A stretch of DNA of 32,000 nt from a bacterium (GTDB lineage: Archaea; Nanobdellota; Nanobdellia; Pacearchaeales; GW2011-AR1), in assembly GCA_036787775.1 (NCBI GenBank), contig DAIQOR010000005.1:12289-44288 (forward strand). The letters are read 5' to 3'. Position numbers and translations under genes: made by a program. Shown piece by piece: positions 1,514 through 31,507 of the stretch (positions are counted from its first letter, which is position 1; each line of letters starts with the position of its first letter). Below the pieces are notes generated by a model, which had not been told where the DNA came from, did no database searches, and saw only the letters and a program-made list of their open reading frames with translations.

Positions 1514-2755
1514 TTATTTCAAAAATCCAACCTTCTCAAAAAGTTCCTTCCCCATAATTCTTCCCAAAGTTCCTCTCCGTGCTTCTCGCTCATTAAAATG
1601 TTTTTCTTTTGGAGGCGAATCGTTATAAAATAAAACTGGCACCGGATCCGCAGAATGATTTTTCAATTTGCACGGCGTCGAATGATCCGCAGTCACAACC
1701 ACCTTAATTTTATTCGGCGGGCAAAATTTCCTCAAAAACAAAAACAGCGTCTTATCAATATATTCCAACATCGCCTTTTTCTCCAATGGTTTATTATCGT
1801 GCCCCGGCAAATCCGTCTCCTTCAAATGAATATACGCGTAATCAAAATTCTTAAATTGTTTTTTCAAACTCTTCACCGAAAACTTACACGCCATCTTCAA
1901 CCCCTCATGCAAATTCTTGTAAGCATCAAGACCTTTCAACTTTGGATAATCAAAACTAAAATTCGTCATCCCGCACACCCGAGAAAACCCAATCTCCAAC
2001 GGCATATAATTCACAGACATCCACCTTCGATAAATTTTCAAAGCAGGTTTCTCAATCCCCGCACCCCGCACAAAAAGATAATTCGCCGGCAACAAACCCT
2101 TCTTCCTCCGATGCTCATTAACCGGATGCTTATCTAAAACCATAAACGCCTTCCTCACAAAATCATTCAAAATATTCGCCGTATACTGAGAATTCTCCGA
2201 CTCGTCCAACGCCTTGCAAATCCCAATTTTAATAAGTTCATGATTTTTTCCCTGTGAATAAGTCGCATCGTTCCCCGAAACGCTATCAGAAAAACCGCCC
2301 CGCAAAACCAAAACAGCCCGATGCTGATTCGTCGAAACAAAATCAAACTCGCAAGGAAGTTTAATCTTTCCCAAAGCCTTCGCCAAAACATCCGCCTCCG
2401 AAGTCGTCAAAGTCCGCCCCGCTCGCCTATCAACAACATTCCCTTTTTCAAGATTATCAATCGTCGCAAAATTCACTCTCAAAGCCAAATCGCCCCGAGT
2501 CAATTTCAAATCAGTCCCCCTCGCTTCCAACTGCCCCCTCGTCGAAGAAATCAGATCATTCCCGAAAATCGAAACAATCGCCTCATCCGACTCTGGCACA
2601 AAACCTGGCTTAACAGGATACATAAAACCCATTTCTCCCCGCGTCGCAAGAAAATCCATGTTCGGCGTCTTCGCAACTTCCAACGGCGTCCTGTCCCCCA
2701 ACAACTTATGAGGCAAATCCCCTGCACCATCCATTATAATAAATATTCCTTTCAT
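1514..2755 (-). CDS. apgM: 2,3-bisphosphoglycerate-independent phosphoglycerate mutase, archaeal type
   Basis: 413 aa. It has an N-terminal IIMDGAGD...TPL..A.TPNMD motif and a C-terminal VVTADHSTP...HS.DPVP motif, both typical of ApgM in the alkaline-phosphatase superfamily. Confidence 0.85.
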   Translation of the reverse strand: MKGIFIIMDGAGDLPHKLLGDRTPLEVAKTPNMDFLATRGEMGFMYPVKPGFVPESDEAIVSIFGNDLISSTRGQLEARGTDLKLTRGDLALRVNFATIDNLEKGNVVDRRAGRTLTTSEADVLAKALGKIKLPCEFDFVSTNQHRAVLVLRGGFSDSVSGNDATYSQGKNHELIKIGICKALDESENSQYTANILNDFVRKAFMVLDKHPVNEHRRKKGLLPANYLFVRGAGIEKPALKIYRRWMSVNYMPLEIGFSRVCGMTNFSFDYPKLKGLDAYKNLHEGLKMACKFSVKSLKKQFKNFDYAYIHLKETDLPGHDNKPLEKKAMLEYIDKTLFLFLRKFCPPNKIKVVVTADHSTPCKLKNHSADPVPVLFYNDSPPKEKHFNEREARRGTLGRIMGKELFEKVGFLK

Positions 2756-2778
2756 CTACCAAATCAAAGAATTCCAAC

Positions 2779-2798
2779 TTTATAAAAATTTATATAAT
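2779..2798. promoter_or_regulatory. back-to-back TATA boxes for divergent apgM and ftsY
   Basis: tttataaaaa (about 2779-2788) lies about 28 nt from the apgM ATG on the minus strand. tttatataat (about 2789-2798) lies about 25 nt upstream of the ftsY ATG at 2818. This spacing implies leaderless or near-leaderless mRNAs. Confidence 0.55.
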
Positions 2799-2817
2799 CC
2801 CAATCTCTTCAAATAAC

Positions 2818-3981
2818 ATGTTTGGAAAACTAAAAGAAAAACTCGGAAATTGGACAAAAAAATTCTCAAAGAAAGCAGAGGAACAAGTCGAAGAAAATAT
2901 TGAAGAAGTCAAACAAGAAACAATAAAAGAAATTAAGAAAAAATCAATCCAACCCGAGGAAAAAACATTAATCAAAACGCCCGATTTGAAAACTCCAGAA
3001 GAAGTAAAAATTATTCAAAAAGAAATTCTAAAAAAAGAAACTAAATTAAAACCGATCAAAGAAATCTCGGAAGAAGACCTTAAAGAAAAACCCGAGCCAG
3101 GAAAAGAATCTTTTTTCAAAAGAGTAACTTCAAAAATAAATAAAATAAAAATAACTGAAAAAGATTTCGAAATTTACTCGGACGAATTAGAAATGCTACT
3201 TTTAGAAAACAACGTTGCCTTGGAAGTCGCGGAAAAAATGGTCAAAGATTTGAAAGAAAGAATTGTCGGACAGGAATTTTTAAAAAAAGAAGTTGAAGAC
3301 CAAATAAAAGAAATTTTCAAAGATATAATCACAGAAATTTTAATTGAACCATTTGACATCGCTGAAAAAATAAAAGAAAAACAAGACAAACCTTATGTGA
3401 TTTTATTTTGCGGAATTAACGGAACAGGGAAAACTACCAGCGTCGCCAAAATTGCAGAATCTTTAAAAAAACAAGGATTAACTTCAGTATTAGCCGCCGG
3501 CGACACTTTCCGAGCTGCATCAATTGAACAACTACAAACTCACGGAGAAAAAATCGGTGTAAAAGTTATCGCTGGAAACTACGGCTCTGACCCAGCATCA
3601 GTCGGCTTCGACGCAATTCAATACGCGAAAAAAAACAAAATCGATTGTGTCTTAATCGACACCGCAGGAAGAATCCACACATCAAAAAATCTTCTAAAAG
3701 AAATTGAAAAAATTGCAAGAATCTGCAAACCTGATTTGAAAATCTTTGTTGGAGAAAGCATCACGGGTAACGACGCAGTCGAACAAGTCAAAACTTTCAA
3801 CTTCGAAATCGGAATAGACGGAATAATTTTATCCAAAGCCGACATCGATGAAAAAGGCGGAACAGCACTCAGCGTCGGTTATGTAACAAAAAGACCGATT
3901 CTATATTTAGGAACAGGACAAGAATATGAAGCCATAGAAAAATTTGATAAAGAAAAATTTATTGAGAAGTTAGGGTTGTAG
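2818..3981 (+). CDS. ftsY: signal recognition particle receptor FtsY
   Basis: 387 aa with a Lys/Glu-rich A domain followed by an NG domain. Motifs seen: GINGTGKTTS (G1), DTAGR (G3) and LSKADIDEKGG (G4-G5). Confidence 0.92.
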   Translation: MFGKLKEKLGNWTKKFSKKAEEQVEENIEEVKQETIKEIKKKSIQPEEKTLIKTPDLKTPEEVKIIQKEILKKETKLKPIKEISEEDLKEKPEPGKESFFKRVTSKINKIKITEKDFEIYSDELEMLLLENNVALEVAEKMVKDLKERIVGQEFLKKEVEDQIKEIFKDIITEILIEPFDIAEKIKEKQDKPYVILFCGINGTGKTTSVAKIAESLKKQGLTSVLAAGDTFRAASIEQLQTHGEKIGVKVIAGNYGSDPASVGFDAIQYAKKNKIDCVLIDTAGRIHTSKNLLKEIEKIARICKPDLKIFVGESITGNDAVEQVKTFNFEIGIDGIILSKADIDEKGGTALSVGYVTKRPILYLGTGQEYEAIEKFDKEKFIEKLGL

Positions 3982-3988
3982 AAGATGG
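3953..3988 (+). repeat. left copy of an imperfect direct repeat (ftsY 3' end plus following start region)
   Basis: aaaaatttattgagaagttagggttgtagaagatgg here versus aaaaatttattgagaaattgggattgtaatgaagatgg at 4792-4829. That is 3 mismatches and one 2-nt indel. Confidence 0.75.
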
Positions 3989-4728
3989 CATATTTCTTTA
4001 GTTTAATAACAATTTTCATTGCAATAATTATCCTAATTTTTACAATCATTTATTATTTCAAACACTTTAACAAACAAAATACAAAGATAGAAAAACTTTG
4101 GAAAGAAAGAAAAATTACAAGCCATAATCTATTTGAAACGCATAAATATAATAACAAACAGATATTAATACAACAAATCTCTCTAACTTTTACGGGATTG
4201 TTAATAATAACAACTCTTTTAATAGGACTTTATTCAACTCACGAGCAAATTAATATTGCAAACAAAAACTTAGAACAATTCAAAGAAACTCAAAGTTCAA
4301 ATTGGGCAGATGTAGAAATAAATTATAGAACACCTCCTGAGAAATTTTTTGTAGTTGATTCCAAATGTTTAGCAAACATAGATTGTTCAAAACATATAAG
4401 TTTAATTGCTATTAATTCTGGAAAAATCAACACAGGAGAAATTTATCTAGATTTTCTTCATGGAGACAATTTATTTGAAACTGAAATTAGTCCAAATACT
4501 TTCATGAATATTACTCCAACCTCTGCAAAATATCTTGATATAGAAATTAACCAAAAAAATTGCAATAAAAATACTCCTTCCTTATGTGATGAGACCAAAC
4601 TTCCTTCAGGGAGATATAATTTAACAATTCAATTCAAATGTGATTTTTGTAAACCAGAACAAAGAGAGGGCATTAATTTTATAATCCCCATATGTGTTTA
4701 TCGTTATTCATATTCAGATTGTAATTAA
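3985..4728 (+). CDS. hypothetical membrane protein (2 TM segments plus a Cys-containing extracellular domain)
   Basis: 247-aa ORF starting 4 nt after the ftsY stop. Hydrophobic segments: FFSLITIFIAIIILIFTIIYYF and LTFTGLLIITTLLIGLY. I recognise no family. Confidence 0.5.
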   Translation: MAYFFSLITIFIAIIILIFTIIYYFKHFNKQNTKIEKLWKERKITSHNLFETHKYNNKQILIQQISLTFTGLLIITTLLIGLYSTHEQINIANKNLEQFKETQSSNWADVEINYRTPPEKFFVVDSKCLANIDCSKHISLIAINSGKINTGEIYLDFLHGDNLFETEISPNTFMNITPTSAKYLDIEINQKNCNKNTPSLCDETKLPSGRYNLTIQFKCDFCKPEQREGINFIIPICVYRYSYSDCN

Positions 4729-4791
4729 TAATAACCTTTCCTTATTCGCCAAAGAAGAGAAATGTAATGAGAGATTCACAACAAAAAAATA

Positions 4792-4829
4792 AAAAATTTA
4801 TTGAGAAATTGGGATTGTAATGAAGATGG
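4792..4829 (+). repeat. right copy of the imperfect direct repeat (relic of the ftsY 3' end)
   Basis: It encodes a relic ...KFIEKLGL-stop identical to the FtsY C-terminus, within a short ORF MRDSQQKNKKFIEKLGL. Confidence 0.75.
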
Positions 4830-4848
4830 AATTTGGAAATAAAGAAAA

Positions 4849-5301
4849 ATGGTAAACAAAAATCAGTTTAAAATATATATTGATGAAGATTCTATTGAAT
4901 TTGGAGAACATCTAAAAGAAGAACATAACTTAAATGTAATTCTTCCCAAAAATTTTGGTAAAAGTATTCCTGATGAAGTCCAACTAAGATTAGCTAATTC
5001 TCAAAGAGCATTTATTCTTACAAAAAATAAAAAACATTTTTTAAATATGCCAAATATTTTTGATAAAATTGGAGATGGAGGAATAATTATTTGGAATACA
5101 AATAATTATCGAGATATTTGTGATTATATCATTTGTTTATGCGGATGGAGGAGTTTTAAATTAAAAGGTAAAATTTACATTCTAAATAATGAAGGAATTT
5201 TTATTCATTCAAAAGAAGGAAAGTCAAATATTAAAACGCATAAACCTTGTGAATTGTGCCAAGAGAAATGTAAAATCAGAGAAAGAAAATTTTTACCTTA
5301 G
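4849..5301 (+). CDS. hypothetical protein with a DUF5615-like (PIN-like) N-terminal domain and a Cys-rich tail
   Basis: 150 aa. KIYIDEDS..FGEHLKEEHNLNVI....GKSIPDEVQLRLANSQRAFILTKNKKHF resembles the DUF5615 pattern (F..DE...L...L...G..V......D..I...A.....l.T.D.DF). The C-terminus contains CxxxxCxC and CxxCxxxC. Confidence 0.4.
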   Translation: MVNKNQFKIYIDEDSIEFGEHLKEEHNLNVILPKNFGKSIPDEVQLRLANSQRAFILTKNKKHFLNMPNIFDKIGDGGIIIWNTNNYRDICDYIICLCGWRSFKLKGKIYILNNEGIFIHSKEGKSNIKTHKPCELCQEKCKIRERKFLP

Positions 5302-5321
5302 AGAATAACTTTTTTGCGAAT

Positions 5322-5945
5322 TCACTCGCTGAATGATTCCTCACTATAATCAATGTGTATTAAGTATGATTTTTCCAATTGAGCATAGTCCAACAATCTT
5401 TTACATTTAATTTTGTATTCTACATTACTTGGTTTTTTATCTTTCTCATAAAGCAACATAATAAAAGTTCCGAGATATCCTGAATTATAATCCTCTAATT
5501 TTTTGTTAAATTCAGCATTAAAGTCCCCGTCATAATATTCCAAGATATTACAAAAAGATTCGCCATTTGACTCTTCAGTAAAGATATGTAAAAATAACCA
5601 TCCATATCCTTCTTCTAATTCGCCACCCTCAGTATACTGATTAAGTGTTTTATATACTTTTAATGTTTCTTCACTAGGGTGTTTTGTGCCTATCTGATTT
5701 AGCCCATCTCTATCTGCATAAACATAAAAATCAAAATCTTCCAATTTGTTCTCTTCCTCATCACTATCACAAATATTATTTGAATTTCCATCTAAACAAC
5801 AAGAATTTCCAACTTTTATATAAGGAAAATTACAAGTTATTTCATTATTAGAATTATCGTTCGAATCAGGAATAAAAATAATTCCAAGAATAACTAAAAC
5901 AACCAGAACGCCAATTCCTACCAAAATATAATTTTCCTTTCCCAT
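5322..5945 (-). CDS. hypothetical N-terminally anchored extracellular protein
   Basis: 207 aa with one N-terminal TM segment (YILVGIGVLVVLVILGIIFI) followed by a Cys-rich stalk (CNFPYIKVGNSCCLDGNSNNICDSDEE). Confidence 0.5.
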   Translation of the reverse strand: MGKENYILVGIGVLVVLVILGIIFIPDSNDNSNNEITCNFPYIKVGNSCCLDGNSNNICDSDEEENKLEDFDFYVYADRDGLNQIGTKHPSEETLKVYKTLNQYTEGGELEEGYGWLFLHIFTEESNGESFCNILEYYDGDFNAEFNKKLEDYNSGYLGTFIMLLYEKDKKPSNVEYKIKCKRLLDYAQLEKSYLIHIDYSEESFSE

Positions 5946-6002
5946 TTAACTTACTTTAATATTATGAGTTAGCATATTTAAATCTTACTATTTCTTTGTA
6001 GT

Positions 6003-6245
6003 ATGTCTAAAAGAAGTTCATTTGATATAAAAAAGAAAATTTTAGAGTTAAGCAAATCTGAGAAAACATTTGCAGAATTAGAAAGAAAAATAAATACGGG
6101 ATTTAATACAATAAAATCTAATTGTGAAGAATTAGAAAAATTTGGATTTATAGAGATTAAAAAAGAAAAGAAGCACGAGAAAAATGGGCGTCCATTTTTT
6201 ATAATAAAAATAACTGAACAGGGAAGAGATTTTTTGAAAAAGTAA
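6003..6245 (+). CDS. small winged-helix DNA-binding protein
   Basis: 80 aa. KKKILELSKSEKTFAELERKINTGFNTIKSNCEELEKFGFIE looks like the HTH plus wing of ArsR/MarR-like wHTH proteins. It is convergent with the PIN gene. Confidence 0.5.
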   Translation: MSKRSSFDIKKKILELSKSEKTFAELERKINTGFNTIKSNCEELEKFGFIEIKKEKKHEKNGRPFFIIKITEQGRDFLKK

Positions 6246-6254
6246 AATCTTAAA

Positions 6255-6806
6255 TTAGCTCAATTTATCTAAAAATTGCTTTATCCCAATTATTTTTAAA
6301 TTAAATTCTTTTGATAAACTTTCCATTTTTCTAAGCTGATTGTCCTTCGTTATAAAAAAATCACATTTATTTTTCTTCGCTTGTAAAATTAAGATTATAT
6401 CCATAAATCCAAAGCCTTTTTTAGAAAGATTTTCTATTTTTTTAAAATCTTCCTTCGTTAAATCTTTAGTTTCTCTAATGCAATATTTCCATATATCAAA
6501 AACTGCTTGACTTACTAATTTATTTTCTTCCGAAGTTAAAAATATTTCTTTTCTTGCATCTCCAAATTCTCTCGTAGAATATCCAGATTCTACAAATTTT
6601 TGTTCCAATCTTATAAATCTAACAACATTTCTTAATTCAAGTTTACTCCATTGGCTCATAACATTAAAAAATTTCCCTGATTCAAAACTATCTAATAATT
6701 CCTCACTTCTCTTCAAAGGAATGGGAATATTTTTCTGTTTATCCCTTTTAGAATAAATTAAAAAAAAATTCACCAATACACATGTATCCAACATTACCTT
6801 ATACAT
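6255..6806 (-). CDS. PIN-domain protein (putative VapC-like nuclease with an insertion)
   Basis: 183 aa. It has an N-terminal MLDTCVL (first PIN acidic residue), an internal FMDIILILQA, and a C-terminal FFITKDNQL (the T.D motif). Confidence 0.5.
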   Translation of the reverse strand: MYKVMLDTCVLVNFFLIYSKRDKQKNIPIPLKRSEELLDSFESGKFFNVMSQWSKLELRNVVRFIRLEQKFVESGYSTREFGDARKEIFLTSEENKLVSQAVFDIWKYCIRETKDLTKEDFKKIENLSKKGFGFMDIILILQAKKNKCDFFITKDNQLRKMESLSKEFNLKIIGIKQFLDKLS

Positions 6807-6808
6807 TT

Positions 6809-6940
6809 TTACTCAAATAACTTACCTAAAATTCCTTTTCTAACAATTCTTTTTCCTTTTTTAATTTTAGGCTGACATTTCCCCCCATTTTTTTTAGGGG
6901 GCTGTTTTCCTTTTTTTAAACAACCCTTTTTTGTAGCCAT
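6809..6940 (-). CDS. possible small lysine-rich ORF directly upstream of the PIN gene
   Basis: Hand translation gives MATKKGCLKKGKQPPKKNGGKCQPKIKKGKRIVRKGILGKLFE, with its stop 2 nt before the PIN ATG. It occupies the antitoxin position but has no recognisable fold, and it may be non-coding. Confidence 0.2.
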   Translation of the reverse strand: MATKKGCLKKGKQPPKKNGGKCQPKIKKGKRIVRKGILGKLFE

Positions 6941-7072
6941 CTTCCCCTTTTCAATTTAATAATAATTTCCACCTTATAAATTTTCCCCATTTAATAACTT
7001 TCCCCATAACTCGCAACAGCGAGCAATTTCCTCAATAAAAAACCTTATAAAACCCTCTTCCGTTTACCAAAT

Positions 7073-7402
7073 ATGAAAAATTATTCTTATGAAGAAGATT
7101 TGGATATTCTATACATCTACAATAATCCAGAAAAAGAAAAAGTTATAGGAAACATGGTTTTAGGAAATTTCGTTTTGGATGTGGGAGAAAATGGAAAAAT
7201 TTTAGGGATTGAAATTGATTGTGCATCAAAGTTTTTTAAAATATCACCCGAACAATTAGGTAATCTAAAAACAACATCTATTGAAGTAATAAAATTTGGG
7301 AACATGATAACTTTAGGATTACTTTTGACAACAGAAATGAAAGAGTATCATTTTCAATTTGCAATGCCTCAAAAAAATAAAGCACCAATTATTTTTTGTT
7401 AA
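7073..7402 (+). CDS. DUF2283 family protein
   Basis: 109 aa. YEEDLDILYIY ... VLDVGENGKILGIEIDCASKF matches the DUF2283 pattern (YD.e.D.lYI ... D....G.i.GIEI..AS). Confidence 0.6.
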   Translation: MKNYSYEEDLDILYIYNNPEKEKVIGNMVLGNFVLDVGENGKILGIEIDCASKFFKISPEQLGNLKTTSIEVIKFGNMITLGLLLTTEMKEYHFQFAMPQKNKAPIIFC

Positions 7403-7775
7403 ATTCTCTCTTTAACCATTTTCCTACTTTTTTCTTTAACTTCTTTTCTTGCCTTGTCCAATCATAATAAGCATTAAAAAATTTAGGAGGGATTTCATCA
7501 AGATAAAAACATAAAACCAGAGTTTTTGCTTCTTCAAGCTTATACCTAAAAGAATACTTAAACCCCTTCTGTGCTGGGCGTTTGAAAACTCCAATAATTT
7601 TTTCAAATTGATAAAAAACTTTCTTCACTTCATCAAGTTCAACCCCATGTTTAAGATAACTATTTCGATTAAAATAAGGATGGATTTTAAAATATTCAAA
7701 CCCCTTACATTTCAAAAAATTTATTTTCTCAATCGCTTCCCCATCACTCAAAGGAATATCTACCTCGTTTTGCAT
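7389..7775 (-). CDS. hypothetical protein, BrnT/DUF497- or DUF4258-like toxin candidate
   Basis: 128 aa. FKIHPYFNRNSYLKHGVELDEVKKVF resembles the BrnT motif (W...K...N..KHGV.F.EA..VF). A later stretch, LVLCFYLDE....FNAYYDWTRQEKK, resembles the BrnT C-terminal strand-helix region. Its 3' end overlaps the DUF2283 gene by 14 nt in convergent orientation. Confidence 0.35.
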   Translation of the reverse strand: MQNEVDIPLSDGEAIEKINFLKCKGFEYFKIHPYFNRNSYLKHGVELDEVKKVFYQFEKIIGVFKRPAQKGFKYSFRYKLEEAKTLVLCFYLDEIPPKFFNAYYDWTRQEKKLKKKVGKWLKREFNKK

Positions 7776-7892
7776 TTTAATTCTAAAGAAAAAACAATTT
7801 ATAAATATGGGTAGGGAAAACCATAAGATCTAAAATGAAACTAATTTAACAACTTCCAATATCTCGAGCGACAGCGAGCATTTTTTCCCAAA

Positions 7893-8093
7893 TCATTTAT
7901 GTCTAAAAACCAAAAGCACTCCAATAAAAGTCAAAATTAAAATAGCACCTGAAATTAAATTAGAATTTTCTAAAGATAAAATACCAATCGCGTTCCCCGT
8001 AATCGTCGGAGTAAAAAAGAAAAACGCCAACAAAACCGAAGCCACAACAACTGCCAAAAGCCCCGAACATCTTTGAGAACATCTCTTCACCAT
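7893..8093 (-). CDS. small two-TM membrane protein
   Basis: 66 aa with two hydrophobic segments. A TATA-like aaaatttaaaaa (minus sense) lies about 27 nt upstream. Confidence 0.4.
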   Translation of the reverse strand: MVKRCSQRCSGLLAVVVASVLLAFFFFTPTITGNAIGILSLENSNLISGAILILTFIGVLLVFRHK

Positions 8094-8169
8094 TACACAT
8101 TCAAGAACCCGGCATTTTTAAATTTTCGCAATCCAAAAACTTAATAATCCCTTATTCCCTCACTAACTC

Positions 8170-9552
8170 ATGTTAGAAAAACTCGGAGAAGTTCTAAGAA
8201 AAGCAACGGACAAAATAGCGAACGCAATCTTTCTTGACAAAAATCTTGTTGACACAATCGTGAGAGAATTACAAAGAGCCTTAATAGAAGCCGACGTGAG
8301 CATCCCCTTAGTAAAAGAAATCTCAGACAAAATAAAAAAAACAGCACTCGACGAAAGAATAAAAGAAATCGACAAAAAAGAACACCTCATAAAATTACTC
8401 CACGACGAATTGGTAAAAATCCTCGGAGAATACAAACAACTCAAACTCCAGCCCAAACAAAACAGAATAATGTTATTAGGTTTATACGGAGCGGGTAAAA
8501 CCACTACAATTTCAAAGCTCGGAAACTACTACGCCAAGCGAGGAAACAAAGTCGCGTTAGTCGGATTGGACGTTCATCGACCAGCCGCGAAAGAACAATT
8601 AAAACAATTAGCTGAAAGAAATAAATTAAATGTTTTCGTCGACATGGAAGAAAACGACGCGGTAAAAACTTGGAAAAAATTCGAGCCCAAATTAAAAGAT
8701 TATGATTTAATTTTAATTGATACCGCTGGACGACACAATTTAGATAAAGAATTAGTTACAGAAATAAAAGAATTAGGAAAACAAATCAAACCAACAGAAA
8801 TAATTTTGGTAATGCCTGCAGATATCGGGCAAGCCGCTAAACAACAAGCTCAAGATTTCAAAAAAGCCCTGAACATTTCCGGAGTTATAATCACAAGAAT
8901 GGATTCAACCGCGAAAGGTGGAGGCGCTTTAACCGCGTGTGCAGAAACCGGCGCATCAGTTTACTTCATCGCCAACGGAGAAAAAATAAACGACCTCGAA
9001 GAATTCAACCCCCAAGCTTTCTTATCTCGACTTCTCGGAATGGGCGACTTACAATCTCTAATTGAAAAAATAAAATCCGTCACCGACGAAGGCAAACAAG
9101 AGAAAATGCAAAAGAAATTGGAAGAAGGAAAACTTTCCCTTGAAGATGTCGTTGAACAAGTTAAATCAATGGGACAACTTGGAGGATTTGATAAAATTAA
9201 AGGAATGATTCCGGGATTAGGCAAAGCAAAAATTCCAGAAAACATGCTCGGCGCCCAAGAAGAAAAAATAGCCAAATGGGAACACATAATTAAATCAATG
9301 ACAAAAGAAGAAAAAGAAAACCCTGAACTTCTAAGCGACAAAAAAACAGGAAACTCGAGGATAAACAGAATTTCAAAAGGTGCTGGAGTAAACAACAGCG
9401 ACATAAAATCTCTAATAAAACAATATGATATGTTGAATGACATGATGAAAGGTGGAATGGGAAACATGGACCCTTCACAAATGATGAACCCTAAACAACT
9501 TCAAAAAATGATGAAGAAGTTTGGTGGAAAGAAATTGAGGAAGTTTCGGTAA
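8170..9552 (+). CDS. srp54: signal recognition particle protein SRP54
   Basis: 460 aa. Motifs seen: GLYGAGKTTT, DTAGR and ITRMDSTAKGG, followed by a Met-rich M domain (MLNDMMKGGMGNMDPSQMMNPKQLQKMMKKF). Confidence 0.95.
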   Translation: MLEKLGEVLRKATDKIANAIFLDKNLVDTIVRELQRALIEADVSIPLVKEISDKIKKTALDERIKEIDKKEHLIKLLHDELVKILGEYKQLKLQPKQNRIMLLGLYGAGKTTTISKLGNYYAKRGNKVALVGLDVHRPAAKEQLKQLAERNKLNVFVDMEENDAVKTWKKFEPKLKDYDLILIDTAGRHNLDKELVTEIKELGKQIKPTEIILVMPADIGQAAKQQAQDFKKALNISGVIITRMDSTAKGGGALTACAETGASVYFIANGEKINDLEEFNPQAFLSRLLGMGDLQSLIEKIKSVTDEGKQEKMQKKLEEGKLSLEDVVEQVKSMGQLGGFDKIKGMIPGLGKAKIPENMLGAQEEKIAKWEHIIKSMTKEEKENPELLSDKKTGNSRINRISKGAGVNNSDIKSLIKQYDMLNDMMKGGMGNMDPSQMMNPKQLQKMMKKFGGKKLRKFR

Positions 9553-24616: not shown

Positions 24617-27600
24617 TTACAATTCAACATTCTCAAACAAACTTCCCTTCAAACACAAATCACCATCAAAATCAATATAACTCATGTTTGTGAAAGTTGA
24701 ATCTTGAATAATAAAAGCATCTCTTGAAGGATTACACGTCGCTGATTGATCTGAACAATCTCCAGTCACCAAACATAAATCTCCTGTAGAATTAATAAAA
24801 GCTACATTATTGTTTGTTGAATTTCTTATAATAAAACTATCTGCCCCAGGAGAATTACAAGTTCCTCCCGAAAAACAACTTCCTGCTAAAACAATATTTC
24901 CTTCATCTCCAAACCATGCGACAATTTCTCCTAAAGAATTTTTATGAGTGAATTTGTATGTATCGGGTAAAACAAAATTACATGCTAAATCACAATTTCC
25001 AGTTCCCGCAACGATGCCCTCACATCTTGAATCTGCAGTACATCCAGAATCAAATGTACTATTTCTACAAACATTATCTCTATCTTCCCCTCCAGCTACG
25101 GAAGTGCATTTATCTGCAAAATAAGGTTCTCCAGAAAAACAAGTTGTTATATTATCTCCTGTTGTTTTTCCATCACACAAAAATTCGTCACAAGAACAAC
25201 CTGCCTCAGCACATTCAAATACAGAAGTAATATCTTGATAAGAACATGTAGAACTACATTCATCTTCGTAGTAAGAAGTGCCTGAACATAAATTAAGGTC
25301 ATCTCCAGTCTGTCTTTCGTCACAATTTACATGACCCGAACCAATTGAGTATTCACAATAGCTTGTCTCTTGCCCATCAAAATAAGTATTGTAAGGAGTA
25401 AAACACCAACCATCATCTCCCAACCCAACTCCATCATCATCACAATATCCCGAACTACATTGAGAATCACTTATACATGATTGACCATTTGATTTATCAC
25501 TAACACAATCCCAATTTGACCAACTACTACTTTTATCACAATACTGATTCGCAGAACAATCACCATCATCAAAACAATTTAAGACATAAATGGAATTACC
25601 TACCCCATAATTAGGACTAAAAGGATACCACCATATCCAACAAGCCTGTTCAAGGGTATCATCATAACCAAGAATCTCATTGCGATAAGCTGTTCCAGGT
25701 GCAGTAATAGTAACCATCGTATCCTCATCATTTATTTCGTCACAATCACACCCTCCATACTCACAATCATAATCACCATCGCAATCATAATACATCTGCT
25801 GAGCATCAACATCTTTCCACCCTATTTTATATTCATCTATAACATAAGGGTCCCAAGCATCATTTACAGCACCCCATTCAATATCATTAACATTCTCATA
25901 TAAATTTTGAGCGATACTTACATCACAATCTTCATAAGAAGATTCTATACAAAACTCATATCCAGATTCTTCACAATCTTCAACTGGTGCTTCTTCCTCT
26001 TCACAATCCTCATCATAAACACACTGGCTTTCAGTTGCACATACATCGGGAGTACAATCTCTCGTCCATTGCTTTTGACTAGCACTACAACTTCCTCCTC
26101 CACATGAACCTTCTGACCAGCTACTGCAACTACAACTTGTAACATCAACCCATATTGGATTTGTATATGCTCTTCTTCCAGTATCAGTGTAAACTTCAAG
26201 TCTAATATAATCATCACTTGTATCTAAATCTATATCAAAAGAGCCAGAATAAGTGTCATCAGATACAGGGATATAATCATAGAATTGATCATTTAGATAA
26301 ATATAGATATAAGTTATATCACCAAATTCTCCATTACTTGACGCACTGATATCTAAGGTGTTAATTCCTGACATTGCATCAACCACACTTCCAATTATGT
26401 TCCCATCAAGGGTGAATTGCACAAATGGACCTGTAGATGCAATGCAGTGTCCATCTTTATAAGATTCTCTTATCGCACTTGTTGTAAGAGTTTCAGAATC
26501 TAAATAACAATAAGTGAAGGTATGTCCTACCTCGCTAATTTGGTGTGCATCACTTCCTGCTATGCCGACTATAAAACCATTATCGGGATTTGTCTCAGCA
26601 ATAAGTAAATCTTCCCATTGATTAATTGTTTCTTGGTCACCCCCTTCAAAAATCCCATCTTTAGCATTAATAAGTTCCAACCCAGAATATCCTGTAACTG
26701 ACCAGTCTTCCCAATTTAAATAATAAGGGAATCCATCATAGGGATGGGCAATAAAACCAATGCCTCCTGCATTCTCCACCTCATCTATTACATCTTGTGC
26801 ATCACGACAACCACTATTCCAAAACGTACAAGTTCCGTCAATATAACCCAAATTATCATCTGAAGAAGGATGAGTTAAATAATGGGCAGCATCGTTGATT
26901 CCAGGAGCATCAACAGCCATTTCCTGACCATACAAACATTTGAATGATGAAGTGCTGTTTCCAACACATGAATTATATCCTCCATTCCATTCTTCACTAT
27001 CGAGATAGTTGCTATGGTCTGTAAAAATAACCCAATCTAATCCCTCACTAATACTCTCATCAATCATCTCTGATAATGGAACAGATCCATCATAAGCTAT
27101 ATCTGTATGCATATGCTGGTCACCCACGTACCACCCAGGAGAATTGTGTGGGGGCGTTGGTAAAGGCTCTGAAATAAGGATTGTATGATTTATTTCAACG
27201 ATATATTTTTTATGATTATAATAAATTTTAAGTTCTAAAGGAATTATAACTATGTCCCCCACATTTAAGGAATCACTAAAATCATTTATATTCAAATAAA
27301 AAGCTTTTGAAAAACTTTTGAATCTAACTTCGTTTCTTAATCTTTTTAGCTCTAATTTATTTTCTAAAGAGCTCAATTTTAAACTATCTAAGCGATCTAT
27401 TTGCTCTTTAACAGGAAGAATATTTTTATTTATTGTAAATTCTCTTATCTTTTCTTTTTTGGGAGAGATAATTTTTATTTTTTCAATAGAAGCGTTGTCT
27501 TTCCCTAAATTCGTTATTGTAGGTTTTATAATAAAAATATCTCCAGAACGTAGAGCACTTGAACCATCAAGAGTTATATTTAGAAATGAAATTTCCTCTT

Positions 27601-30567: not shown

Positions 30568-30618
30568 TATTTAAAAGAGTTCCTATAATTCAAAACAAAA
30601 AACCAACAAATTTATAAA
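30568..30618. promoter_or_regulatory. divergent promoter pair
   Basis: tatttaaaa (about 30568-30576) lies about 24 nt from the minus-strand ATG at 30548. tttataaa (30611-30618) lies about 26 nt upstream of the plus-strand ATG at 30641. Confidence 0.5.
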
Positions 30619-30640
30619 ACTCTTTTTCTTAATTAACTCA

Positions 30641-31507
30641 ATGAAATCAAAAAGAGGTTTTCAAAAAAGATTCTTAGAAATTTTAAACAGCAAGCCGATT
30701 ATAGGATTATTTATTTTTTTAATTCTTGGCATAGCAATGGTCGTCGCTGGTGATGTTGTTGTTAAAGAGGGCGATATGGATATTAATAACGGACTAATCG
30801 TAAATGATATATTATATGTTAACACTACCAATAATAATGTGGGAATAGGAACAAATTCTCCCCTTAGTGGAATTAAATTGGATATTGATGGTCAAACGAG
30901 ATCAAAAAATTCAATATTGTGGAGCCCTTCTGCATCAGGCTGGGTAGCTCAACTAAAATTTATGACAATGGATGGACTCTCAACTCATCATGTATTTTTT
31001 ATAGATAGGGGAGATAATGATAGATTAAATTTAGATTTGAATCGGAATGGAACTTCAGAAGATATAATGAGAATTAGAGGAGGAATTGATATAGATGATA
31101 GTTTAACAATTGATAATTATTTAGGAGTTGGTTTAACAAATCCAAATCAATCAGTAGATGTAAATGGAAATGTTCAAGCATTGGATTTTATAACTATATC
31201 AGACAGAGAACAAAAAGATAATATTAAAGAATTAAATGTCAACGAAGTTTTTTCATCAACACCAAAACTTTATGAATATCAATTCAAAAAACAAGTTCCG
31301 GTTTATGACGAAGATGAAGAAAATGTATTAAGTTACACAACCGAATTAATGCCTCCTCAAGTTGGATTGATGATGGATGAAGTTCCAGAAGAATGCAGGA
31401 AAGGAAAAGGTGTTGATAATTATTGCATGCTTTCTTTGGCTTACACACAAATAATAAGTTTACAAAACGAACTTTGTACAAAAGATAATTCTTATAGTTG
31501 GTGTTGA
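30641..31507 (+). CDS. membrane-anchored tail-fibre-like protein with a C-terminal S74 intramolecular-chaperone (endosialidase chaperone) domain
   Basis: 288 aa with an N-terminal TM segment (IIGLFIFLILGIAMVVAG). NNNVGIGTNSPLSGIKLDIDGQ and LGVGLTNPNQSVDVNGN match the (V)GIGT..P...LDV.G fibre repeat. ISDREQKDNIKEL...LYEYQFK...VGLMMDEVPEE...LSLAYTQIISLQNEL matches the SD.R.K.NI ... Y.y ... GliAqEv ... peptidase S74 pattern. Confidence 0.65.
   Translation: MKSKRGFQKRFLEILNSKPIIGLFIFLILGIAMVVAGDVVVKEGDMDINNGLIVNDILYVNTTNNNVGIGTNSPLSGIKLDIDGQTRSKNSILWSPSASGWVAQLKFMTMDGLSTHHVFFIDRGDNDRLNLDLNRNGTSEDIMRIRGGIDIDDSLTIDNYLGVGLTNPNQSVDVNGNVQALDFITISDREQKDNIKELNVNEVFSSTPKLYEYQFKKQVPVYDEDEENVLSYTTELMPPQVGLMMDEVPEECRKGKGVDNYCMLSLAYTQIISLQNELCTKDNSYSWC

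What the first reader, a model, noticed from the sequence alone, without database searches (positions are those of the whole stretch)
30641..31507. Membrane-anchored phage-tail-fibre-like protein with an S74 autoproteolytic chaperone domain, divergent from the PHP cluster
Seen in the sequence: an N-terminal TM helix, two copies of the (V)GIGT..P....(L/V)D(I/V).G motif typical of tail-fibre or tailspike stems, and a C-terminal ISDREQKDNIKEL...Y.F...VGLMMDEVPEE...ISLQNEL block.

Established knowledge: that C-terminal pattern corresponds to the peptidase S74 intramolecular chaperone of endosialidases and phage fibres, which trimerises the fibre and then cleaves itself off at the Ser of the SD.R motif.

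Inference: no other viral genes are nearby. It shares a divergent promoter region with the secreted-protein cluster. It may therefore be a domesticated trimeric surface fibre (attachment to a host or partner cell) functionally linked to the PHP cluster.
Basis: partly seen in the sequence, partly recalled or inferred. Interest (0 to 1): 0.6.

Follow-up and report, generated by a model that had tools for sequence, protein, structure and literature searches.

The report
Self-cleaving mini surface fibre, DPANN archaeon
A tiny symbiotic-type archaeon carries its own short, phage-tail-fibre-like surface protein with a self-removing folding domain, and genes of this family almost always sit next to large secreted proteins that share one particular tail domain, here the neighbouring PHP hydrolase, which suggests the two proteins plug together.

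Summary
The ORF (window 30641-31507, +, 288 aa) is real, and the described features are present. They are one N-terminal hydrophobic helix, two VGIGT..P...L motifs 94 residues apart, and a C-terminal SDREQK block.

The query alone misses the Pfam Peptidase_S74 threshold (14 bits against 22). Its subfamily profile matches Pfam-positive S74 domains at 99.3% probability (hhalign, E 2e-20). The AlphaFold model of residues 160-288 finds MyRF ICA, endosialidase and T5 fibre chaperones as its top hits. Ser187 and Lys192 fit the SDxxxK dyad.

The host is a 755-kb Pacearchaeota-type DPANN genome. No viral genes are nearby, and no relative was found in phage or IMG/VR collections.

The protein belongs to an unannotated family of about 110 clusters in the set collected here. 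Members share one conserved leader and carry different tips, which is the logic of Bdellovibrio MAT fibres.

New here: in 14 loci, including 4 of 4 chosen without bias, the fibre gene directly follows a large secreted protein ending in a conserved triple-repeat C-terminal domain (CTD) of about 115 aa. The window's PHP hydrolase ends in this CTD. The genome has two loci, each with one fibre copy and one CTD protein. These two segments are the only near-identical DNA between the loci.

The scan has noted similar cellular S74 fibres in other genomes. The CTD pairing was not among those notes.

The parts
30597..31507 (+). 911-bp cassette (promoter plus ORF) present twice in the genome. The second copy is at contig C8:11361-12271.
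   Evidence: blastn gives 99.67% identity with sharp ends 44 nt upstream of the ATG and at the stop codon. There are 3 differences, and the 2 inside the ORF are synonymous.
30611..30619 (+). TATA-like box tttataaaa, at -30 to -22 from the ATG. This implies a leaderless or near-leaderless mRNA.
   Evidence: Read directly from the sequence. It lies inside the duplicated cassette. Function is inferred.
30641..30751 (+). Conserved family leader (aa 1-37): MKxKRG..FLEILNSKP, then a hydrophobic segment (aa 19-37) ending in VVA36-G37.
   Evidence: Hydropathy and AlphaFold helices. About 110 representative proteins share it. Ala36 is invariant in alignment A7.
30752..30838 (+). Conserved N-module after the hydrophobic segment (aa 38-66, DVVVKEGDMDINNGLIVNDILYVNTTNNN). 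It is the candidate docking part.
   Evidence: Conserved across the family. In sister-strain contigs, 14 of the 22 nucleotide differences fall in codons 43-60.
30839..31198 (+). Fibre/tip module (aa 67-186), bounded by two capping-loop-like motifs (aa 67-80 and 161-174).
   Evidence: Motifs found. This stretch matches repeatedly along longer tail-fibre-domain proteins. The spacing is like the Bd3182 tip. The monomer AlphaFold model is poor here (pLDDT <50).
31199..31216 (+). SDREQK: the predicted cleavage and nucleophile Ser187 and the general base Lys192.
   Evidence: Invariant Ser and Lys in A1 and A6. They align to SDxRLK of Pfam-positive domains and fit the SDxxxK motif.
31199..31504 (+). 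Divergent Peptidase_S74 / intramolecular chaperone domain (aa 187-288).
   Evidence: hhalign 99.3%. AlphaFold mean pLDDT is 83 for the 129-residue model of residues 160-288. Foldseek top hits are 7DC3, 3GW6 and 4UW8. PHROG tail-protein families match at 4e-7.
31469..31504 (+). Extreme C-terminal ELCTKDNSYSWC tail (Cys279, Cys288).
   Evidence: Conserved in family members with and without the SDxxxK motif. Its role is unknown.
24620..25009 (-). Triple-repeat C-terminal domain (CTD) of the 1019-aa PHP hydrolase. It is the proposed partner module of the fibre.
   Evidence: It is shared with the large secreted proteins encoded upstream of family members elsewhere. It is 96.3% identical in DNA to C8:3886-4212.

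Best explanation
The gene encodes a miniature cell-surface fibre of a Pacearchaeota-type DPANN archaeon.

Proposed working, with each step marked:
- The protein is exported by a family-specific N-terminal leader. The hydrophobic segment is shown. Whether it stays as a membrane anchor or is cut after Ala36 is open.
- Three chains are zipped into one short beta-helical tip module (residues about 67-186) by the C-terminal S74-type intramolecular chaperone. This step is inferred from homology.
- The chaperone then cuts itself off at Ser187 using the Ser187/Lys192 dyad and exposes the tip. This step is also inferred.

The protein belongs to a mosaic family with one conserved N-terminal end and many different tips.

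Its conserved N-terminal part most likely docks to a conserved triple-repeat C-terminal domain (CTD) carried by large secreted proteins. In this genome these are the PHP hydrolase and its paralogous-locus counterpart. The result would be an enzyme or adhesin joined to a binding fibre on the cell surface. The docking is inferred from gene order, co-occurrence and co-homogenisation.
For: S74 domain:
- The subfamily profile A1 against Pfam-positive S74 domains (A5) gives 99.3% probability, E 2e-20, over 108 columns, with SDRxxK aligned on SDxRLK.
- A5 hits solved ICA/S74 chains 8JOV, 6F45, 7DC3, 8HQZ and 3GUD.
- A1 alone hits 6F45 at E 0.019.
- 9 of 13 subfamily members touch PF13884. Of two related proteins scanned, P0003 reaches 22.2 bits and P0014 reaches 78 bits.
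- The AlphaFold model of residues 160-288 has pLDDT 83. Its top 8 PDB hits are all ICA/S74 structures, the best being 7DC3 with probability 0.99.

Cellular, not viral.

Mosaic family: 110 leader-bearing representatives, 27 with S74 and 83 with other ends. The leader occurs in 8 of 401 genomes of the phylum, all in one class.

Tip geometry resembles Bd3182.

Pairing with the CTD:
- All large proteins upstream of family members share the CTD, and so does the window's PHP protein.
- The order CTD gene then fibre gene, on the same strand with a gap of 10-110 nt, is seen in 14 loci. This includes 4 of 4 loci chosen only by the leader.
- 7 of 8 leader-positive genomes are CTD-positive, against 32 of 393 others (Fisher p 3.6e-7, kinship not removed).
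- This genome has exactly 2 CTD proteins and 2 fibre copies, one of each per locus. They are the only near-identical DNA between the two loci (99.67% and 96.3%), while the PHP paralogues of the two loci are about 32% identical in protein.
- CTD and leader similarities correlate across 15 pairs (Mantel r 0.50, p 2e-4).
Against: - The query itself fails the Pfam gathering threshold. Fold-search E-values are modest (0.016), with TM about 0.47.
- The trimer, the cleavage and the surface location are untested. The stem is modelled poorly as a monomer.
- In this window the fibre gene does not directly follow the CTD gene. It lies 5.6 kb away on the other strand, with its own promoter.
- The CTD is more widespread (39 of 401 genomes) than the leader (8 of 401). 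Some CTD genes have no recognisable fibre neighbour, for example G290 and G355:C61. One leader gene (G133) has no CTD neighbour.
- The co-occurrence and Mantel statistics are inflated by shared ancestry.
- No interaction model could be computed.
Confidence: 0.6

Rival explanations
1. It is a stand-alone adhesin, a membrane-anchored or secreted S74 fibre. Its position beside CTD-bearing proteins only reflects clustering of surface-protein genes in variable genomic islands. The CTD would be a lectin-like or wall-binding domain unrelated to the fibre.
For: The CTD profile weakly resembles a beta-propeller lectin (6GXR, E 1.5e-3). The CTD occurs in many genomes that lack the leader. Some CTD genes have no fibre neighbour. 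About 24% of the genes in this genome start with a hydrophobic segment, so secreted neighbours are common.
Against: The adjacency is specific to CTD-bearing proteins, which otherwise have unrelated bodies: S8 protease, beta-helix, RHS-type, LamG-type, pilin-like and PHP. It held in 4 of 4 unbiased loci. Large secreted genes make up only 3.8% of genes. The two modules are co-homogenised between the two loci.
Confidence: 0.25
2. It is a viral or mobile-element receptor-binding protein: a remnant of a virus of DPANN archaea, or a cassette moved by one.
For: PHROG tail-protein families are its best library hits (4e-7). The gene with its promoter behaves as a discrete 911-bp cassette present at two loci. 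It is patchy among relatives, absent from the 24 same-family genomes searched except for one weak match. A sister strain with identical flanks carries a different allele.
Against: No viral gene was found in the window or around the second copy. There is no tblastn hit in 50,697 phage records and no relative of the leader in 2.9 million IMG/VR contigs. Homologues sit beside ribosomal-protein operons and core genes.
Confidence: 0.07
3. The C-terminal domain is a degenerate S74 relic that only trimerises and no longer cleaves. The protein would then remain full length.
For: It scores below the Pfam threshold. The canonical GxIAQEVxxxxPExV core is replaced by GLMxDEVPxEC with extra cysteines. Some family members have lost the SDxxxK motif (P0018, P0124, P0060).
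Against: Ser187 and Lys192 are invariant in the subfamily with the correct +5 spacing, and Asp188 and Arg189 are nearly invariant.
Confidence: 0.08

Closest known systems
Bdellovibrio bacteriovorus MAT (mosaic adhesive trimer) fibres, S74 group, e.g. Bd3182 (Caulton et al. 2024, PMC10769870)
   Same: Both are cell-encoded, not viral. The exported family has one conserved N-terminal end and diversified tips. Some members end in an S74 domain with SDxxxK and others do not. The tip is bounded by two similar loops of the V-G-x-...-P-x-x-x-L type about 95 residues apart, the second lying just before the catalytic Ser.
   Different: This protein is archaeal (Nanoarchaeia). It has 288 aa, against 600 aa or more (typically about 1000) for MAT fibres. 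The conserved N-end is a long leader plus about 30 residues, not the roughly 130-aa beta-rich MAT domain. The S74 subfamily is divergent and has two extra Cys pairs. The gene is regularly paired with a CTD-bearing large protein, which was not described in the parts of that paper read here.
Phage tail-fibre and tailspike intramolecular chaperones: K1F endosialidase CIMCD (3GW6), T5 pb1 L-shaped fibre (4UW8/8HQZ), phi29 gp12 (3GUD), S16 gp37 (6F45)
   Same: The same domain family by profile and fold. The Ser/Lys dyad lies at the start of the domain and a long C-terminal helix follows.
   Different: There is no virion context. An export leader replaces a virion-attachment N-terminus. There is no detectable sequence match in phage genomes by tblastn.
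Myelin regulatory factor (MyRF) ICA domain (7DC3)
   Same: It is the best structural match of the model (probability 0.99). It is another cellular use of the S74 domain, in a membrane protein.
   Different: In MyRF the membrane helix follows the ICA domain and cleavage frees a transcription factor (my own knowledge). Here the hydrophobic segment is N-terminal and the chaperone itself would be released outside the cell.
Cohesin-dockerin display of secreted enzymes (cellulosome). This is a functional analogy only.
   Same: One conserved terminal module sits on many unrelated secreted enzymes. A separate small surface protein is encoded nearby.
   Different: There is no sequence or fold relationship. 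The interaction here is only inferred.

Membership tests
Peptidase_S74 / intramolecular chaperone auto-processing domain (Pfam PF13884) | Score at or above the Pfam gathering threshold (22 bits) | tested here: not met
   The query scores 13.7-14 bits, E 0.06-0.08. Two related proteins pass: P0003 at 22.2 bits and P0014 at 78 bits.
Peptidase_S74 / intramolecular chaperone auto-processing domain (Pfam PF13884) | Homology to bona fide S74 domains over the whole domain | tested here: met
   hhalign of A1 against A5 gives 99.3%, E 2e-20, over 108 columns. A5 hits 8JOV, 6F45, 7DC3, 8HQZ and 3GUD. The A1 HMM hits Pfam-positive proteins down to 5e-10.
Peptidase_S74 / intramolecular chaperone auto-processing domain (Pfam PF13884) | Catalytic Ser-Lys dyad in an SDxxxK motif at the domain start | tested here: met
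   S187-D-R-E-Q-K192. Ser and Lys are invariant in A1 and A6. The motif is as given.
Peptidase_S74 / intramolecular chaperone auto-processing domain (Pfam PF13884) | ICA fold | tested here: met
   The model has pLDDT 83. Its top 8 Foldseek PDB hits are 7DC3, 3GW6 and 4UW8 chains, the best at E 0.016, probability 0.99, TM 0.47. The E-values are modest.
Peptidase_S74 / intramolecular chaperone auto-processing domain (Pfam PF13884) | Trimer-dependent self-cleavage at the Ser | not testable with these tools
   This needs expression of the wild type and S187A, or a multimer model.
MAT-type cellular mosaic fibres (Caulton 2024) | One conserved N-terminal end shared by a family with diverse C-terminal tips, both S74 and non-S74 | tested here: met
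   110 leader-bearing representatives, 27 with S74 and 83 with other ends.
MAT-type cellular mosaic fibres (Caulton 2024) | Conserved beta-rich domain of about 130 aa directly after the signal peptide | tested here: not met
   The conserved stretch after the hydrophobic segment is only about 30-40 residues. Homology to the Bdellovibrio domain was not tested.
MAT-type cellular mosaic fibres (Caulton 2024) | Capping-loop motif V-G-G/N-pi-x-x-P-x-x-x-L flanking the tip cleft | tested here: inconclusive
   Two similar motifs are present, VGIGTNSPLSGIKL and LGVGLTNPNQSV, 94 residues apart. They are one residue longer than the published consensus. No trimer structure is available.
MAT-type cellular mosaic fibres (Caulton 2024) | Display on the cell surface with the C-terminus pointing outwards | not testable with these tools
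   Only the export leader is shown.
Phage or provirus tail fibre | Lies among virion, packaging or integration genes, or has relatives in viral genomes | tested here: not met
   See (neighbours; phage records; IMG/VR).
Archaeal type IV pilin-like proteins (class III signal peptide) | A short charged N-terminus, G/A, then an immediate hydrophobic stretch; hits to pilin models | tested here: not met
   After KRG come 12 mostly polar or charged residues (FQKRFLEILNSK) before the hydrophobic segment. There is no Pfam or NCBIfam hit.

The most novel reading that the evidence does not exclude
Nanoarchaeia (DPANN) would have a plug-in surface system. A conserved triple-repeat C-terminal domain (CTD) on many unrelated secreted proteins acts as a pseudo-threefold socket for the conserved N-terminal end of small trimeric, self-cleaving fibres with interchangeable tips. 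The carriers include PHP hydrolase, subtilisin-type protease, beta-helix, LamG-type, RHS-type and pilin-like proteins. Each enzyme or adhesin would thereby get its own targeting fibre. The two modules would be kept matched by gene conversion.
Probability: 0.35. Interest if true: 0.75.

Novelty: new variant of a known kind. Interest (0 to 1): 0.55.

Why it matters
DPANN archaea are thought to live attached to other cells, yet the molecules that recognise and hold the partner are mostly unknown.

This gene adds an archaeal, miniature version of the phage-derived fibres that Bdellovibrio uses to recognise prey. It also defines the conserved leader that identifies the whole family in metagenomes.

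The recurring pairing with a conserved tail domain on large secreted hydrolases, proteases and pilin-like proteins gives a concrete two-protein interaction to test. The PHP hydrolase and its fibre are small enough to express and assay. If the pairing holds, it would explain how these reduced cells aim their secreted enzymes at a host surface.

Tried and rejected
- A plain Pfam, NCBIfam or PDB sequence search with the whole protein gave nothing significant. The S74 signal appeared only with family profiles.
- Fold search with the full-length monomer model (pLDDT 61) was uninformative, with the best E at 1.8. The C-terminal fragment model was needed.
- The idea that the fibre N-module is a fourth copy of the CTD repeat is rejected. 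hhalign of A7 against A8 gives 1.3% probability.
- The idea that the leader is a class III (pilin) signal is rejected on sequence.
- A weak hit of the leader to the Sulfolobus 0406 thread subunit (7PNB, E 0.23) is not significant.
- Conservation of the PHP cluster next to the fibre in close relatives could not be tested. Neither gene was found in 40 relatives.
A9 worked.
- Literature searches for S74 or MAT fibres in DPANN archaea returned nothing relevant.

Full report
**1. What is there**

The window carries an open frame at 30641-31507 (+) of 288 codons.
- A TATA-like tttataaaa lies at -30 to -22 from the ATG (read).
- Residues 19-41 form the only strongly hydrophobic stretch. AlphaFold makes helices at 7-15 and 18-35.
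- Two motifs of the type VGIGT..P...L.V.G lie at residues 67-84 and 161-176, 94 residues apart.
- The sequence S187-D-R-E-Q-K192 starts the C-terminal third.

**2. The organism and the neighbourhood**

The window's other genes include RadA, an RPA-like protein, an eIF2-alpha domain protein, SRP54, FtsY and a DHH phosphoesterase. The assembly is 755 kb in 18 contigs at about 33% G+C and about 91% complete. This is a DPANN-type archaeon. A family member of the protein (27% identical) is labelled Pacearchaeota in GenBank, and earlier notes of this scan say the same.
- No PHROG virion, packaging or integration family matches the neighbours, the rest of the window, or the flanks of the second copy.
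- tblastn finds nothing in 50,697 phage records.
- The family leader has no relative in IMG/VR.
- Homologues elsewhere lie beside ribosomal-protein operons, aspartate-semialdehyde dehydrogenase and tRNA synthetase-sized genes.

The gene is chromosomal, not proviral.

**3. Is the C-terminus an S74 intramolecular chaperone?**

A plain Pfam scan says no. PF13884 reaches only 14 bits (E 0.06) against a cut-off of 22, and only when the C-terminal piece is scanned alone. PHROG tail-protein families match at 4e-7. The evidence becomes firm with profiles.
- An exhaustive search found 437 relatives.
- The 13 closest C-terminal domains (alignment A1) have Ser187 and Lys192 invariant, and Asp188 and Arg189 nearly invariant.
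- Nine of the 13 touch PF13884, with a best E of 1e-5.
- The A1 HMM matches the C-terminal domains of Pfam-positive proteins over its full length, down to 5e-10.
- hhalign of A1 against an alignment of 15 Pfam-positive domains (A5) gives 99.3% probability, E 2e-20, with SDRxxK on SDxRLK.
- A5 in turn hits solved chaperone domains: a tail fibre (8JOV), S16 gp37 (6F45), MyRF ICA (7DC3), the T5 L-shaped fibre (8HQZ) and phi29 gp12 (3GUD).
- The AlphaFold model of residues 160-288 is confident (pLDDT 83). Its eight best PDB matches are all chains of 7DC3, 3GW6 (the K1F endosialidase chaperone) and 4UW8 (T5). E-values are modest, the best being 0.016 with probability 0.99.

I conclude that this is a divergent S74/ICA domain with the catalytic dyad intact. 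Its canonical core GxIAQEV..PExV is replaced by GLMxDEVPxEC...YC, with two additional cysteine pairs. Trimerisation and self-cleavage are inferred from the family, not shown.

**4. The rest of the protein and its family**

The first 75 residues are strikingly conserved in about 110 representative proteins, each standing for a 50%-identity cluster. The consensus is MKxKRGxxKFLEILNSKPVIGxxIFIxLSLAxVxAG(D/N)VIVKEG...VGIGT..P.
- Only 27 of these proteins carry an S74 domain. The other 83 end in unrelated sequences.
- This matches the logic described for Bdellovibrio MAT fibres. Those have one end conserved for retention and the other diversified, and 13 of 21 end in S74 with SDxxxK.
- The mature part here is essentially a single tip module. 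In Bd3182 the crystallised tip is bounded by two identical capping loops that start 96 residues apart, and the second ends 17 residues before the catalytic serine. Here the two motifs start 94 residues apart, and the second ends 13 residues before Ser187.
- The leader occurs in 8 of 401 high-quality genomes of the phylum, all in one class. GenBank titles of further loci read Nanoarchaeota, Woesearchaeota and Nanoarchaeia.
- None of the members whose source gives a name bears a functional one; those named are labelled hypothetical protein.

*Anchor or signal peptide?* The hydrophobic segment is long and the n-region is conserved, which is unusual for a plain signal peptide. On the other hand, Ala36 is invariant with V/T/A at -3, which looks like a signal-peptidase I site (the rule is my own knowledge). 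I leave this open. 'Membrane-anchored' is therefore not established.

**5. The link to the PHP cluster**

I looked at what lies beside family members in other genomes. The gene directly upstream on the same strand was nearly always a large secreted protein. Such genes are only 3.8% of the genes in this genome.

Their bodies are unrelated: subtilisin-type protease, NosD/beta-helix, InhA-like MAM, LamG-type and RHS/FG-GAP-type domains. An all-against-all comparison showed that they all end in one homologous domain of about 115 residues. The window's 1019-aa PHP hydrolase ends in it too, at residues 902-1016.

The domain (CTD, alignment A8) is three tandem repeats of about 37 residues of the form F-I-I-K-N-S..G..VA.ID..G.L.L.G.L. 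It has no Pfam match. It has only a weak resemblance to a beta-propeller lectin (6GXR, E 1.5e-3).

Tests of the pairing:
- **Gene order.** CTD gene then fibre gene, on the same strand with a gap of 10-110 nt, occurs in 14 loci. Four of these (L046-L049) were retrieved from GTDB genomes by the leader pattern alone, and all four show the arrangement. Looser linkage of 1-3 kb, or the reverse order, occurs in four more loci.
- **Co-occurrence.** 7 of the 8 leader-positive genomes are CTD-positive, against 32 of 393 others (Fisher p 3.6e-7). Kinship is not removed from this figure.
- **Two loci in this genome.** There are exactly two fibre copies and two CTD proteins, one of each in two collinear loci (C10, which is the window, and C8). 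The PHP paralogues of the two loci share about 32% protein identity. The only near-identical DNA between the loci is the fibre cassette (911 bp, 99.67%) and the CTD-coding segment (327 bp, 96.3%).
- **Correlated divergence.** CTD and leader similarities correlate across 15 pairs (Mantel r 0.50, p 2e-4). This is expected from co-evolution, but also from shared descent.

The leader and the CTD are not homologous to each other.

The simplest reading is that the two conserved modules contact each other. Three repeats in one chain would offer a pseudo-threefold face to a homotrimer. Which partner holds the complex on the cell is open.
- The cargo proteins have ordinary short signal peptides. That favours the fibre as the anchor.
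- In two loci the CTD sits on, or lies directly beside, proteins with type IV pilin-like N-termini. That favours the reverse.

Counter-evidence:
- In this window the fibre gene is 5.6 kb from its CTD gene, on the other strand.
- The CTD is five times more widespread than the leader.
- A few CTD or leader genes lack the partner nearby.

**6. Cassette behaviour**

The duplicated unit starts 44 nt upstream of the ATG, so it includes the TATA box, and it ends exactly at the stop codon. The two differences inside the ORF are synonymous.

Two contigs from another sample of the same aquifer project carry the same locus.
- One has flanks 100% identical to the window, yet 22 differences inside the gene. 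Fourteen of these fall in nucleotides 129-178 (codons 43-60).
- The other has flanks about 4% different but an identical gene.

The gene is therefore exchanged or converted as a unit, independently of its flanks. The most variable patch is the conserved N-module, not the tip.

**7. Verdict**

The thing itself is a new archaeal, miniature variant of a known kind: cellular S74 or MAT-like fibres. This scan has noted such fibres in at least 22 other genomes. I found no paper describing them in DPANN archaea.

It is the part worth following up.

Noticed in passing
window 24620-25009 (-); also L029, L030, L031, L032, L033, L035, L008, L010, L046-L049: A triple-repeat C-terminal domain of about 115 aa (...FIIKNSSSxNVAYIDxNGDLCLTGxLxENxNP) ends many otherwise unrelated large secreted proteins of Nanoarchaeia. 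It has no Pfam match and occurs in 39 of 401 genomes of the phylum.
   Followed up: yes
window 30597-31507 and genome contig C8:11361-12271: The fibre gene plus its promoter is an exact 911-bp cassette present at two loci. Sister-strain contigs (L014, L015) show that the gene diverges independently of its flanks, with a hypervariable patch at codons 43-60.
   Followed up: partly
L040 (G296:C6) 4480-7080 and L041 (G262:C37) 4490-8445: Here the CTD gene has, or lies directly beside, genes with archaeal type IV pilin-like N-termini (K/R-x-Q-A/F-A-L/M-E-F). The CTD may therefore also be mounted on pili.
   Followed up: no
L029 (G391:C31) 1722-7709: A 1995-aa CTD-bearing protein combines SpvB, TcdB-middle, FG-GAP and RHS-repeat Pfam hits, the layout of a polymorphic-toxin shell protein. 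It is directly followed by a leader fibre with a canonical S74 domain.
   Followed up: no
window 31469-31504; P0018, P0124, P0060, P0031, P0070, P0105, P0137: An extreme C-terminal motif ELCxKDxSYSWC (two Cys, eight residues between them) is conserved in family members both with and without the catalytic SDxxxK. Its role is unknown.
   Followed up: no
protein P0014 (metagenomic, 422 aa): It carries two chaperone domains in tandem: one of the divergent subfamily (residues 116-235) and one canonical PF13884 domain (278-337).
   Followed up: no
genome contig C8:3460-6204 (-): In the second locus the CTD is internal (residues about 659-776 of 914) and is followed by a further 138 residues. In all other cases seen it is the C-terminus.
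   Followed up: no
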